In this document: in pieces, positions 11,885 through 49,726 of the stretch
Layout: the number at the start of each line of letters is the position of its first letter
Position numbering within the stretch: position 1 is the first letter of the stretch
Assembly: GCA_963767035.1 (NCBI GenBank)
Contig: CAVYBW010000001.1
Coordinates: forward strand, 2,438,547 to 2,502,546
DNA: 64,000 nt
Source of the DNA: an uncultured Chloroflexia bacterium
GTDB lineage: Bacteria; Chloroflexota; Chloroflexia; Chloroflexales; Herpetosiphonaceae
Direction of reading: 5' to 3'
Made by a program: the position numbers and the translations under genes
The notes under the pieces: model-generated
Database searches by the model: none
The model's input: only the letters and a program-made list of their open reading frames with translations
Told to the model about the DNA's origin: nothing

Positions 11885-12108
11885 GCCATGTCCATTTTTC
11901 AATCGAACAATTGCACCATTTTCAATGTGGCGCATGTAGTGGCTGGTGGAGCATTGGCGATGCTCCACCACGCGAGCATTGGTTTTGCCCATGGTGTGGC
12001 ACCCAGTTAATCAATGCTGGCCCGTTGCCGCCATTAGCGCCAAATAGCGACCTGCCCGAAAGCCCAAATAGCAACCCAGCCTTGAATGATGGCCTAGCAA
12101 TCGATTGA
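11881..12108 (+). CDS. Small zinc-ribbon protein. Overlaps the NADAR stop as ATGA.
   Basis: 'CGACSGWW...CPWCG' are paired CxxC motifs. The 4-nt overlap suggests translational coupling. Confidence 0.4.
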   Translation: MSHVHFSIEQLHHFQCGACSGWWSIGDAPPREHWFCPWCGTQLINAGPLPPLAPNSDLPESPNSNPALNDGLAID

Positions 12109-13645: not shown

Positions 13646-13687
13646 TAGTAATACAGAACCACCTCAACATTCCAAAAAATGAATTTT

Positions 13688-24454: not shown

Positions 24455-24648
24455 AGTTCCCTCACCCCCAGCCCCCTCTCCCACCTAGCGGGCGAGGGGG
24501 AGTCGGAAAACGAATAATCTTGCTTTTCCACACGGGGCGCGGAGGAGTCCTGATCCAAAAATGCTGGTTTCTCGATCCAATCTTGATCAAACCACCATAT
24601 CAAGCCCCTCTCCCGCTAGGTGGGAGAGGGGCTGGGGTAAGGGAACTT
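24455..24648. mobile_element. MITE-like element, family A (~194 bp) with ~21-bp TIRs
   Basis: Left 'aagttccctcacccccagcccc' and right 'ggggctggggtaagggaactt'. Sub-terminal hairpins are 'cccctctcccacctagcgggcgagggg' and 'cccctctcccgctaggtgggagagggg'. Confidence 0.65.
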
Positions 24649-48202: not shown

Positions 48203-48309
48203 GGGAGACTCCTTGCTTAGTATGGTGTGGCTGCGATTATAGCATGCGGATTTGGCGGTGTGAAAGCTGCAAGCCCAATCCATGCCGCAAGTGAGCTTGC
48301 AGCACGTTT

Positions 48310-48555
48310 CTAGGCTTGTTGGGCGAGATAGGCAGCGATTAATGTTTCAACTTCGCCGGCCTCGGCATGACGTTCGGTCTGAAGTTTGCTATAGAGCAGC
48401 TGCCCATTAACTACGACTTCAAAACAACCACCCTTCGCGGGAATCAGGCTCAGTTGCGCAATCGCTTGGCGATGAATGTCCAACAGTTGGGCTGCCAAAC
48501 TGACAGCACGCGGGGTGTAGTTTCAATCCATGCAAAATGTAATTGTGATCTGCAT
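48310..48555 (-). CDS. selW: SelW/Rdx-family selenoprotein with in-frame TGA (Sec) at codon 11. ORF tools report only 48310..48498.
   Basis: ATG at 48555 sits 7 nt after 'aggagg'. Translation is 'MQITITFCMDU NYTPRAVSLAAQLL...GGCFEVVVNGQLLYSKLQTERHAEAGEVETLIAAYL'. This parallels human SelW ('VVYCGAUGY...GFFEVMVAGKLIHSK'). TGA is at 48523-48525. A hairpin 'gctgtc agttt ggcagc' lies 15 nt 3' of the TGA. Confidence 0.6.
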
Positions 48556-48678
48556 AGCGAGCCTCCTATATCAATTAACCATAGGTTTATTATAGCTCTA
48601 TCTCTCAGCCCATAAGCGCATAGAACAGAGAGCATAGAGCATAGTAGATTAGGCTATGGTCTATTGGCAGGTTTGACC

Positions 48679-49006
48679 TCTCACCTCCTAGCCTGCTCTC
48701 CCTTCAAGGATAGGTTTTAACAAAGGGCTAGTGGATGGTCATATTAATAATCCCCTCACCCCCTATCCCCCGCTCCCACTGAACGCGGGCGAGGGCGAAC
48801 CGTGCCTCCATTTCCCATGGATCTGCGAAAACCACCATATGAAGCCCCAGCCCCGAGCCACGGGAGCGTGGCTGGGGTCAGGGCATCTTAACCGACTACC
48901 CTTGAACGCGGGCGAGGGGGAACCGTGCCTCCATTTCCCATGGATCTGCGAAAACCACCATATGAAGCCCCAGCCCTGTGGCGCGGGGCTGGGGGTGAGG
49001 GAATGC
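48679..49006. repeat. Family-A repeat cluster containing a ~110-bp direct duplication
   Basis: 'gaacgcgggcgaggg(c/g)gaaccgtgcctccatttcccatggatctgcgaaaaccaccatatgaagccccagccc' occurs at 48781-48868 and again at 48904-48991. The cluster ends in 'ggggctgggggtgagggaatgc'. Confidence 0.65.
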
Positions 49007-49230
49007 AAAAGAAATTTTTGGTTCTTCTGCCACGTCTTGGGGCTAAATACAACAGAGAACAGATGGGATTAGGCTCTGAGTTGTTGGCTTTGATTCTTGA
49101 GGTTACGAACAAATGACCGATAGCCATAAGCCAATAGCCTCAAGTCATTCGTGGTTAATGACCCTTGTAATCGTTTTGCTTTAACATACACTCTCAATAC
49201 AGCATTTGATTCAGTTAAATGGAGCAACGC

Positions 49231-49726
49231 TATGTCAAGTCAACTTTGGTGGATTATTGTAGCAGTCTTGATAGGGTTGGCAATTTGGGTTTGGAGCATG
49301 CGCTCCGAACGGCCAACCAGCAGCATCAATCTCAATCAACAACCGCTTAATCACAAGCCAACCCCAACCTTCGATCCAGCGATGATCAATCAATTCAGAT
49401 CAAAATCCGATCCTAGCACGATCGATCAAGCCCAAATTCAAGCGTTATTATTGCAAGGCAAAAAGATCGAGGCAATTAAGCAGGTGCGCCAACAGACAAA
49501 CCTTGGGCTAAAAGAAGCCAAAGATTATGTCGATCAGATTGAGCATGGTACAAGTCCGATCAGCCCACATCTGGCGATACCACAAGCGCACGCATTACCA
49601 GAAGATCTGCTGCGCGAAGCCCAAATGGTTGCCAACCAAGGCAACAAGATTAAAGCGATTAAACTGGTGCGACAGGCCACCAATTTGAGTTTGAAAGAAG
49701 CCAAAGATATGGTTGATAGTTGGTAA
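49231..49726 (+). CDS. Membrane-anchored protein with two ribosomal-L7/L12-CTD-like repeats
   Basis: TM helix 'WWIIVAVLIGLAIWVW'. The repeats 'KKIEAIKQVRQQTNLGLKEAKDYVD' and 'NKIKAIKLVRQATNLSLKEAKDMVD' resemble L12 C-terminal 'KIAVIKVVREATGLGLKEAKDLV'. Confidence 0.5.

What the first reader, a model, noticed from the sequence alone, without database searches (positions are those of the whole stretch)
48310..48555. Hidden SelW/Rdx selenoprotein: in-frame TGA in a CxxU motif, truncated by ORF callers
Reading the minus strand from the ATG at 48555, which sits 7 nt behind a perfect AGGAGG, gives MQITITFCMD-TGA-NYTPRAVSLAAQLL... and then the ORF-tool protein. The N-terminus F-C-x-x-U-x-Y-x-P-R-A and the later GGCFEVVVNGQLLYSK align with selenoprotein W (CGAU...GFFEVMVAGKLIHSK). 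The six-frame track only shows the TTG-started fragment 48310..48498 and loses the redox motif. The mRNA carries a 6-bp stem with a GU-containing loop (gctgtc-agttt-ggcagc) 15 nt after the TGA, which is a candidate bacterial SECIS. This implies the organism decodes Sec and that other selenoproteins may be mis-annotated genome-wide.
Basis: partly seen in the sequence, partly recalled or inferred. Interest (0 to 1): 0.8.

Follow-up and report, generated by a model that had tools for sequence, protein, structure and literature searches.

The report
Truncated SelW-like selenoprotein gene, Herpetosiphon
This is a small redox protein gene whose in-frame TGA almost certainly encodes selenocysteine, so gene callers cut off its active site; the family and the mechanism have been known in bacteria for about 20 years, so it is a correct but ordinary find.

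Summary
On the minus strand, ATG 48555 sits 6 nt behind AGGAGG and opens an 81-codon frame, MQITITFCMD-TGA-NYTPRAV...QQA, with the TGA at 48525..48523. ORF callers report only the 62-aa TTG fragment.

- **Family:** with U read as C, the product scores 64.7 bits on Pfam Rdx (cutoff 22.6) and 52.9 on TIGR02174 CXXU_selWTH (cutoff 34.2).
- **Orthologs:** all 82 related loci, from Herpetosiphon, Anaerolineae, Planctomycetota, Acidobacteriota and Bacillota, keep TGA at this codon. More distant solved homologs have Cys there.
- **Genus pattern:** in Herpetosiphon, codons 1-10 vary mostly synonymously. A 49-nt run covering the TGA and the hairpin is invariant.
- **Hairpin:** GCUGUCA-GUU-UGGCAGC, 15 nt after the TGA, meets all four published bacterial SECIS constraints. 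Across 41 orthologs it is 95.5% paired, with compensatory changes in 4 of 7 pairs and an invariant loop G.
- **Sec machinery:** none lies in the 64-kb window. A published survey lists SelD, SelA and SelB and 2 selenoproteins for H. aurantiacus DSM 785, whose ortholog is 91% identical.

SelW-like selenoproteins are a long-known bacterial family, so this is a new member of a known kind and an annotation fix. Interest is low.

The parts
48310..48555 (-). Full SelW-like (Rdx family) selenoprotein CDS: 81 codons plus a TAG stop, with one in-frame TGA
   Evidence: Translation. Pfam Rdx scores 64.7 bits against a 22.6 cutoff and covers profile positions 1-72/74. TIGR02174 CXXU_selWTH scores 52.9 against 34.2. 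The gene is 91% identical and syntenic to the Herpetosiphon orthologs.
48562..48567 (-). Shine-Dalgarno AGGAGG, 6-nt spacer to the ATG
   Evidence: Read directly from the sequence. A GGAG core is kept at the same place in L001 and L002. The TTG at 48498 has no such motif upstream.
48532..48534 (-). Cys8 codon (TGC), the resolving Cys of the CxxU motif
   Evidence: TGC or TGT is invariant at this position in alignment A2. It lies at the end of strand beta1 in the model.
48523..48525 (-). In-frame TGA, proposed selenocysteine codon (residue 11)
   Evidence: TGA sits at the homologous codon in 82 of 82 related loci. It aligns with the second Cys of the CxxC motif in solved Rdx proteins, 2fa8 and 2obk. 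In the AF2 model it is the N-cap of helix alpha1.
48491..48507 (-). SECIS-like hairpin GCUGUCA-GUU-UGGCAGC (5' arm 48507..48501, loop 48500..48498, 3' arm 48497..48491)
   Evidence: The hairpin folds at -7.8 kcal/mol alone and -8.6 with flanking bases. It meets the four bSECIS constraints quoted. Over 41 orthologs 95.5% of cells are paired, against 17-45% when the partner is slid. Four of 7 pairs show compensatory changes, no shuffle of 500 reaches the observed value, and the loop G is invariant.
48479..48527 (-). 49-nt run with no substitution among 7 Herpetosiphon sequences, covering the TGA and the hairpin
   Evidence: Elsewhere in the gene, 4 of 10 and 18 of 54 codons carry synonymous differences, so the absence of variation here points to an RNA-level constraint.
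48496..48498 (-). Spurious TTG start used by ORF callers, lying in the loop and 3' arm of the hairpin
   Evidence: GenBank entries Haur_0303, SE18_14130 and MBM7844304.1 are all 62 aa and start at this position.
48589..48594 (-). Candidate -10 box TATAAT, about 35 nt upstream of the ATG (weak lead only)
   Evidence: Read from the sequence. A TATAAT is also present upstream in L001 and L002. The consensus scan did not call it because there is no good -35 element.

Best explanation
The gene at 48555..48310 (minus strand) encodes an 81-residue SelW-like member of the Rdx (SelT/SelW/SelH) family. Its active site is Cys8-Met-Asp-Sec11.

**Translation.** It starts at the ATG behind the AGGAGG. When the ribosome reaches UGA 48525..48523, the hairpin 15 nt downstream acts as a bacterial SECIS. 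SelB carrying Sec-tRNA(Sec) binds the apical G-U loop and delivers selenocysteine in competition with release factor 2. Translation then continues through the hairpin to the TAG.

**Protein.** The product adopts a thioredoxin-like beta1-alpha1-beta2-beta3-beta4-alpha2 fold with Sec at the N-terminus of helix alpha1. It most likely works as a small thiol/selenol oxidoreductase that cycles between a selenol/thiol form and a selenenylsulfide form. Its substrate is unknown.

**What is shown.** Family membership, the conserved UGA, coding-type conservation upstream of the UGA, and a conserved, covarying hairpin that fits the bSECIS model.

**What is inferred.** Actual Sec insertion, SelB binding, and the redox role. 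The presence of Sec machinery rests on a published survey of a congeneric genome, not on the window's own genome.
For: - **Family HMMs:** scores exceed the curated cutoffs, and the extension across the TGA is what completes the profile.
- **Conserved TGA:** 82 of 82 related loci from at least four phyla have TGA at this codon.
- **Sec/Cys pairing:** solved Rdx proteins have Cys aligned to it, CTQC against CMD-U.
- **Genus-level substitution pattern:** codons 1-10 show 4 synonymous changes and 1 replacement, the 5' leader is highly variable, and a 49-nt run over the TGA and hairpin is invariant.
- **bSECIS constraints (PMC13188914), all met:** a 3-nt loop on a 7-bp stem; loop pattern A-G-U-U-U, matching N1 G [G/U] N N2; 21-22 nt from UGA to the loop; and -7.8 to -8.6 kcal/mol.
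- **Covariation:** 95.5% paired against 17-45% for slid controls, 4 pairs with changes on both sides, and 0 of 500 shuffles reaching the observed value. RNAalifold finds the same helix on its own.
- **TGA as a stop:** it is an ordinary stop elsewhere in the window.
- **Fold:** the AF2 model has the Rdx topology with residue 11 at the alpha1 N-cap, and its best structural matches are bacterial SelW-related proteins.
- **Sec machinery in the genus:** H. aurantiacus DSM 785 is listed as SelD+, SelA+ and SelB+ with 2 known selenoproteins (PMC5029168 Tables S1 and S2).
- **Gene context in relatives:** about 20 related loci have the gene directly beside selD, two of them also beside selA.
- **Known family:** SelW-like is an established bacterial selenoprotein family (PMC1088965 and PMC1794560).
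Against: - The 64-kb window holds no selA, selB or selD and no tRNA gene, and the rest of the source genome could not be read.
- The window's exact protein is not in the 15-billion-sequence collection, so the Sec trait is inferred from congeners.
- The hairpin is small and not thermodynamically exceptional. The z-score is about 0, and about 3% of random TGA triplets pass crude bSECIS rules.
- No Rfam model matches.
- The covariation sits inside a conserved A-V-S-L-A/T-A coding segment, and the sequences are phylogenetically related, so the shuffle control overstates significance.
- The AF2 model was built on P0001, which has Trp in place of Sec, from a shallow alignment, and reaches only pLDDT 73.
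- There is no experimental evidence of selenium incorporation.
Confidence: 0.92

Rival explanations
1. The TGA is a genuine stop. The functional product is the 62-aa TTG-started protein annotated in GenBank, an Rdx domain without its redox motif. The upstream 10 codons are a short leader peptide or non-coding.
For: This is how the gene is deposited for H. aurantiacus, H. geysericola and H. giganteus. The fragment alone still passes the Pfam cutoff at 37.6 bits.
Against: - The TTG has no Shine-Dalgarno motif and lies inside a conserved hairpin.
- The fragment lacks strand beta1 and the CxxU motif, covering only profile positions 19-72.
- Codons 1-10 and 12-19 are conserved as protein in 82 loci across phyla, in frame with the rest.
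- Within-genus changes upstream of the TGA are synonymous.
Confidence: 0.03
2. The gene is a decaying relic. The lineage of the window has lost Sec decoding, so the TGA now terminates translation and the gene is a pseudogene still intact in appearance.
For: No Sec machinery lies in the 64-kb window, and the source genome is not otherwise accessible. Published work describes losses of the Sec trait and of selenoproteins in bacteria (PMC1794560).
Against: - The RBS, ATG, frame and hairpin are all intact, and the recoding region is identical to that of five other Herpetosiphon species.
- The substitution pattern shows purifying selection (18 synonymous-only against 9 replacement codons downstream).
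- The type species of the genus is reported to have SelD, SelA and SelB.
Confidence: 0.04
3. The UGA is read through without selenocysteine, for example as Trp or Cys by near-cognate suppression or an alternative genetic code. One metagenome gene caller assumed this and wrote W at the position.
For: P0001 from a Logan assembly was called with W at this position.
Against: - TGA ends 6 of 20 long ORFs in the window, so this is not a code-4 organism.
- The position aligns with a catalytic Cys in homologs.
- It is followed by a covarying SECIS-type hairpin.
- In many relatives the gene sits beside selD.
Confidence: 0.01

Closest known systems
Bacterial SelW-like selenoproteins (Zhang and Gladyshev; Sargasso Sea selenoproteome 2005, PMC1088965; Genome Biol 2006, PMC1794560); NCBIfam TIGR02174 CXXU_selWTH; Pfam PF10262 Rdx
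   Same: The size is about 80 aa. The N-terminal CxxU motif follows strand beta1, and a GGxFE(V/I) motif is present. The UGA is followed by an in-ORF bSECIS with a G in a small apical loop. Close Cys-containing homologs are few or absent. HMM scores exceed the curated cutoffs.
   Different: Nothing essential differs. This copy comes from Herpetosiphon (Chloroflexota), its exact sequence is not in the public collection searched, and its congeners are deposited in truncated form.
Cys-form bacterial Rdx proteins with solved structures (A. tumefaciens Atu0228 2fa8, P. fluorescens 2obk, S. avermitilis SAV_2001 3dex, V. cholerae 2p0g)
   Same: They share the fold (Foldseek E 4e-5 to 6e-4, TM about 0.65). 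The redox motif aligns in sequence (phmmer E 4e-8).
   Different: They carry CxxC rather than CxxU and are about 105 aa long with extra termini. Identity is only about 25-28%, and they need no recoding.
Mammalian selenoprotein W (mouse SelW, 2npb)
   Same: It has a CxxU motif at the beta1-alpha1 junction, the Rdx fold and a similar size. It is a structural match at E 5.8e-3.
   Different: Direct sequence similarity is marginal (E 0.87). The eukaryotic SECIS lies in the 3' UTR and is read by SBP2 and EFSec, whereas here the element lies in the ORF just after the UGA, as in the bacterial SelB-type mechanism (PMC10778597).
E. coli fdhF-type bacterial SECIS / consensus bSECIS model
   Same: It is a hairpin immediately downstream of the UGA inside the ORF, with G-U exposed in a small apical loop at the prescribed distance. 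All four constraints of the consensus model are met.
   Different: The stem is short, 7 bp with no bulged U, and the sequence is unrelated. A sister clade (Anaerolineales) uses a hairpin shifted 5 nt upstream with a CGUGA loop. SelB binding was not tested.

Membership tests
Rdx / SelT-SelW-SelH family (Pfam PF10262; NCBIfam TIGR02174 CXXU_selWTH) | Profile HMM score above the curated cutoff over the whole domain | tested here: met
   PF10262 scores 64.7 bits against 22.6 and covers profile positions 1-72/74. TIGR02174 scores 52.9 against 34.2.
Rdx / SelT-SelW-SelH family (Pfam PF10262; NCBIfam TIGR02174 CXXU_selWTH) | CxxC or CxxU redox motif directly after the first beta strand | tested here: met
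   The motif is C8-M-D-(TGA)11. It aligns with CTQC of 2fa8 and 2obk. In the model, beta1 spans residues 3-9 and alpha1 starts at 11.
Rdx / SelT-SelW-SelH family (Pfam PF10262; NCBIfam TIGR02174 CXXU_selWTH) | Thioredoxin-like beta1-alpha1-beta2-beta3-beta4-alpha2 fold | tested here: met
   The AF2 model of the 91%-identical ortholog P0001 has that topology at pLDDT 73. The top 20 Foldseek PDB matches are bacterial SelW-related proteins, followed by thioredoxins. Confidence is moderate because the alignment is shallow.
NCBIfam NF041051 SelTWH_Campy (equivalog) | Score at or above the equivalog cutoff of 88 bits | tested here: not met
   The score is 77.1 bits, below 88. It is related to that Campylobacter-type equivalog but is not a member.
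Bacterial selenoprotein gene (SelB/SECIS-dependent UGA recoding) | In-frame UGA at a position conserved as UGA or Cys in homologs, with protein conservation on both sides | tested here: met
   TGA is present in 82 of 82 related loci, and Cys in distant solved homologs. Substitutions upstream of the TGA are synonymous.
Bacterial selenoprotein gene (SelB/SECIS-dependent UGA recoding) | bSECIS model: 3-9 nt loop on a 4-16 bp stem; G in the first two loop positions; 16-37 nt from UGA to the loop; MFE <= -7.5 kcal/mol (PMC13188914) | tested here: met
   The hairpin has a GUU loop on a 7-bp stem, or an AGUUU loop on 6 bp. The spacing is 21-22 nt and the energy is -7.8 to -8.6 kcal/mol. The helix covaries and the loop G is invariant across 41 orthologs.
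Bacterial selenoprotein gene (SelB/SECIS-dependent UGA recoding) | selA, selB, selD and tRNA-Sec (selC) present in the same genome | not testable with these tools
   None lies in the 64-kb window, and the rest of the source genome is not available. A published survey lists SelD, SelA and SelB as present in the congener H. aurantiacus DSM 785. tRNA-Sec was not checked anywhere.
Bacterial selenoprotein gene (SelB/SECIS-dependent UGA recoding) | Selenium actually incorporated at the UGA (75Se labelling or mass spectrometry) | not testable with these tools
   This requires an experiment.
Rfam curated SECIS families | Covariance-model match at the gathering score | tested here: not met
   There is no hit at the gathering score in the window. 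A permissive scan of 48440-48560 gave only chance CRISPR-repeat matches. Short bacterial SECIS hairpins are poorly captured by these models, so this weighs little.

The most novel reading that the evidence does not exclude
The SelW-like selenoprotein may be a dedicated partner of the selenium-activation pathway rather than a general redox protein, for example handing selenide or a perselenide to SelD or keeping SelD's active-site Cys/Sec reduced. In about 20 of the 80 related loci (Planctomycetota and two Bacillaceae) the gene lies directly beside selD. In Planctomycetota it is on the same strand with a 30-150 nt gap, and in the Bacillaceae selA is also adjacent. I found no description of this linkage in the papers searched. 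The search was shallow, co-location of selenoprotein genes with sel genes is common, and the Herpetosiphon copy in this window is not next to selD.
Probability: 0.15. Interest if true: 0.45.

Novelty: new member of a known kind. Interest (0 to 1): 0.15.

Why it matters
The main value is annotation hygiene. The gene is deposited as a 62-aa 'hypothetical' or 'SelW-related' protein in at least three Herpetosiphon genomes. That form loses strand beta1 and the catalytic CxxU motif, and the same truncation recurs in dozens of Chloroflexota and Planctomycetota assemblies.

Correcting it marks the organism as Sec-decoding and adds a redox selenoprotein to an aerobic, predatory, filamentous Chloroflexota lineage. 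It does not change what is known about selenoproteins or recoding.

The ortholog set assembled here is a clean small example of a SECIS constrained at synonymous sites, with a register-shifted variant in a sister clade. It also shows a recurrent selD adjacency that might help assign a function to the still uncharacterised bacterial SelW-like proteins.

Tried and rejected
- **Single-sequence folding.** The hairpin is predicted, but the region's z-scores are 0.33 and -0.15. I therefore did not use thermodynamics as evidence.
- **Rfam.** Nothing reached the gathering score. A permissive scan of the recoding region gave only chance CRISPR-repeat matches below threshold, caused by the string GGAUUGAAAC.
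- **tRNA search.** ARAGORN found no tRNA or tRNA-Sec gene in the window.
- **Sel genes in the window.** tblastn with E. coli SelA, SelB and SelD against the window gave no hit. The same run turned up the selD adjacency in other loci.
- **Direct check of Herpetosiphon sel genes.** This was not possible. A protein search with E. coli Sel proteins would have been swamped by closer relatives, so I did not spend it.
- **Scan for other selenoprotein candidates.** A crude scan for other TGA-interrupted ORFs with a bSECIS-rule hairpin gave 11 further candidates. Nine lie inside or at the end of longer ORFs, mostly in another frame, so they look like noise. The other two, at 13681 and 12012, were not followed up.
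- **Code-4 or Trp reading of the TGA.** Rejected, because TGA terminates 6 of 20 long ORFs in the window.
- **Sequencing error at the TGA.** Rejected, because 82 independent assemblies show it.

Full report
**1. The observation**

On the minus strand, the sequence reads AGGAGG (48567..48562), a 6-nt spacer, then ATG (48555). The frame is MQITITFCMD-TGA-NYTPRAVSLAAQLLDIHRQAIAQLSLIPAKGGCFEVVVNGQLLYSKLQTERHAEAGEVETLIAAYLAQQA-TAG. That gives 81 codons, with the TGA at 48525..48523 and the stop at 48312..48310.

The mechanical ORF list contains only the TTG-started 62-aa piece 48310..48498. The hairpin gctgtc-agttt-ggcagc begins exactly 15 nt after the TGA.

**2. Family**

With the TGA read as Cys, the product matches Pfam Rdx (PF10262) at 64.7 bits against a cutoff of 22.6, covering profile positions 1-72 of 74. 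The 62-aa fragment matches only positions 19-72, at 37.6 bits.

NCBIfam TIGR02174 'CXXU_selWTH' scores 52.9 against a cutoff of 34.2. The Campylobacter-type equivalog NF041051 scores 77.1, below its cutoff of 88.

Against the PDB, the best sequence matches are Cys-form bacterial SelW-related proteins: 2fa8 Atu0228 at E 3.8e-8, then 2obk, 3dex, 2p0g, 2ojl and 2oka. In these the CTQC motif aligns on C-M-D-(TGA). Mouse SelW itself is marginal at E 0.87.

I modelled the 91%-identical ortholog P0001 with AlphaFold2 (pLDDT 73). The model has beta1(3-9)-alpha1(11-28)-beta2-beta3-beta4-alpha2, so the TGA-encoded residue is the N-cap of helix alpha1. Foldseek ranks the bacterial SelW-related structures first, then thioredoxins and mouse SelW.

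**3. Relatives and the TGA**

The protein search returned a full-length metagenomic copy called with W at the TGA, and a run of 60-62-aa truncated entries. The underlying DNA of the metagenomic copy and of H. geysericola keeps the TGA.

A scan of one genome per species found 80 loci. The closest are H. aurantiacus DSM 785 (91% identity), H. giganteus, H. llansteffanensis, H. geysericola and Herpetosiphon sp. NSE202. After these come Anaerolineae, Planctomycetota, Blastocatellia and a few Bacillota. All 82 related loci have TGA at the homologous codon, preceded by C-x-x and by a conserved beta1 strand.

The H. geysericola locus has the same neighbours as the window: a GH116 glycosidase, an L7/L12-domain protein, the Rdx gene, an NAD-epimerase and a GAF histidine kinase. 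The window therefore comes from a Herpetosiphon. Its exact protein is not in the 15-billion-sequence collection.

**4. Does conservation begin before the TGA?**

Yes. Among seven Herpetosiphon sequences, codons 1-10 carry four synonymous third-position differences and one replacement (D/Y). In the same ungapped comparison the 60-nt leader is variable at 48 positions.

From just before the TGA through the hairpin (48527..48479) there is a 49-nt run with no substitution at all. Synonymous differences occur in 4 of 10 codons upstream of the TGA and in 18 of 54 codons downstream of the hairpin region. That is the signature of a translated N-terminus plus an RNA-level constraint downstream of the UGA.

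**5. The SECIS candidate**

The published consensus model for bacterial SECIS elements (PMC13188914) sets four constraints:

- a 3-9 nt apical loop on a 4-16 bp stem;
- a G in the first two loop positions, in the pattern N1 G [G/U] N N2;
- 16-37 nt between the UGA and the loop (also in PMC10778597);
- a minimum free energy of -7.5 kcal/mol or lower.

The window's element is GCUGUCA-GUU-UGGCAGC. It can be read as a 7-bp stem with a GUU loop, or as a 6-bp stem with loop A-G-U-U-U, which fits the pattern exactly. The spacing is 21-22 nt and the energy is -7.8 to -8.6 kcal/mol. All four constraints are met.

Taken alone this is weak evidence. The region's folding z-score is about 0, and about 3% of all TGA triplets in the window are followed by a hairpin that passes crude versions of these rules. 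The comparative data carry the argument:

- In 41 orthologs that share the register, the seven pairs are 95.5% paired, against 17-45% when the 3' partner is slid by 1-3 columns.
- Four pairs show changes on both sides: C-G/U-A, G-C/A-U, U-A/C-G/U-G and C-G/G-C.
- None of 500 shuffles reaches the observed values.
- The loop G is invariant and the following U is more than 90% conserved.
- RNAalifold recovers the same helix independently.
- One covarying pair joins two codon wobble positions (columns 30 and 42), so the protein sequence does not dictate it.

A further 31 sequences, mainly Anaerolineales, use a hairpin shifted 5 nt upstream, GCCGGGC-CGUGA-GCCUGGC. It also has a G-U loop and covaries at its two outer pairs.

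The TTG that ORF callers use as a start lies in the loop and 3' arm of the hairpin and has no Shine-Dalgarno motif.

**6. Is TGA a stop here, and is there Sec machinery?**

Six of the 20 long ORFs in the window end in TGA, so read-through needs a dedicated mechanism.

The window has no tRNA gene, no Rfam hit and no selA, selB or selD. The rest of the source genome could not be examined.

A published survey of more than 5200 bacterial genomes (Peng et al. 2016, PMC5029168) lists H. aurantiacus DSM 785 as SelD+, SelA+ and SelB+, and negative for YbbB, YqeB and YqeC. It counts '2 known selenoproteins' for that strain (Tables S1 and S2). The paper does not say which two in the text held here.

In about 20 related loci (Planctomycetota and two Bacillaceae) the SelW-like gene lies directly beside selD, and in the two Bacillaceae also beside selA. 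This ties the gene family to selenium use.

**7. Mechanism**

*Shown.* The gene is an Rdx-family gene whose active-site residue is encoded by a UGA conserved across phyla. The UGA is followed by a conserved, covarying hairpin of bSECIS type.

*Inferred from established knowledge of bacterial Sec insertion* (SelB binds the SECIS apical loop and delivers Sec-tRNA(Sec) to the UGA; PMC10778597). SelB with Sec-tRNA(Sec) binds the G-U loop as the ribosome approaches. Sec is inserted at residue 11, and translation proceeds through the melted hairpin.

*Inferred from the family.* The C8-x-x-U11 pair at the beta1-alpha1 junction of a thioredoxin-like fold cycles between a reduced form and a selenenylsulfide form, acting as a small oxidoreductase. 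The physiological substrate of bacterial SelW-like proteins is unknown (PMC1088965).

**8. Rival explanations**

- A real stop with a 62-aa product is contradicted by the cross-phylum protein conservation of residues 1-19, the missing RBS at the TTG, and the loss of strand beta1 and the redox motif.
- A relic in a lineage that lost Sec cannot be excluded for the window's own genome. It is unlikely given the intact, genus-invariant recoding region and the Sec machinery reported in the type species.
- Non-Sec read-through, or code 4, is contradicted by normal use of TGA as a stop.

**9. Comparison with what is known, and novelty**

SelW-like proteins were the most abundant selenoprotein family in the Sargasso Sea selenoproteome in 2005. 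That study recorded their CxxU motif and a bSECIS with a conserved apical G. The 2006 bacterial survey listed them in many bacteria and noted that they have few or no Cys homologs. Dedicated HMMs exist (TIGR02174, PF10262).

This gene is therefore another member of a known kind. What is wrong is the annotation. Haur_0303 (ABX02955.1), SE18_14130 (KPL86023.1) and MBM7844304.1 are all deposited as 62-aa proteins.

The interest is low: 0.15.

Noticed in passing
Loci L029, L037, L047, L048, L052, L056, L059, L061-L063, L065, L069, L070, L073, L076, L078-L080 (Planctomycetota); L064 (Peribacillus kribbensis); L077 (Mesobacillus subterraneus): The SelW-like selenoprotein gene lies directly beside selD (tblastn with E. 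coli SelD, 37-43% identity). In Planctomycetota it is on the same strand, starting 30-150 nt after the SelW-like stop. In the two Bacillaceae selA is also adjacent. The Herpetosiphon window does not have this arrangement. I found no description of the linkage in the papers searched.
   Followed up: partly
Loci L010-L050 (31 sequences, mainly Anaerolineales), positions about 1544-1562 of each locus: In this clade the SECIS-like hairpin is shifted 5 nt upstream (GCCGGGC-CGUGA-GCCUGGC) relative to the Herpetosiphon and Planctomycetota register, yet it keeps a G-U in the loop. The same protein segment is thus encoded with two different RNA structures.
   Followed up: partly
window 48773-48877 and 48896-49000: A 105-nt direct repeat (two copies, 87% identical, spacing 123 nt) with overlapping G/C-rich inverted repeats lies in the intergenic region between the SelW-like gene and the L7/L12-domain ORF. 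There is a weak partial match at 24589-24637 and a 74% match upstream of the ortholog in Herpetosiphon sp. NSE202 (L007).
   Followed up: partly
window 48236-48264 (minus strand): A strong sigma-70-like promoter match (TTCACA, 17-nt spacer, TG-TATAAT; 11 of 12 positions) lies between the SelW-like stop codon and the likely GTG start of the NAD-epimerase gene. The epimerase probably has its own promoter, and the selenoprotein gene may be monocistronic.
   Followed up: no
window 49151-49726 (plus strand): A 191-aa ORF has two internal repeats resembling the ribosomal L7/L12 C-terminal domain and an N-terminal hydrophobic segment. Its H. geysericola ortholog carries PF00542. This is an unusual stand-alone, probably membrane-anchored L12-domain protein.
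   Followed up: no
window 13680-13682 (plus strand) and 12011-12013 (minus strand): Two other TGA-interrupted open frames with a bSECIS-rule hairpin are not covered by a longer ORF in another frame. The first is followed by a 13-bp G/C-rich stem that looks more like a terminator or repeat element. Neither was examined further.
   Followed up: no
window 48520-48553: The string GGAUUGAAAC, which spans the Sec codon, gives a sub-threshold chance match to CRISPR repeat models in Rfam (13 bits against a gathering score of 45). It is not a CRISPR repeat.
   Followed up: yes
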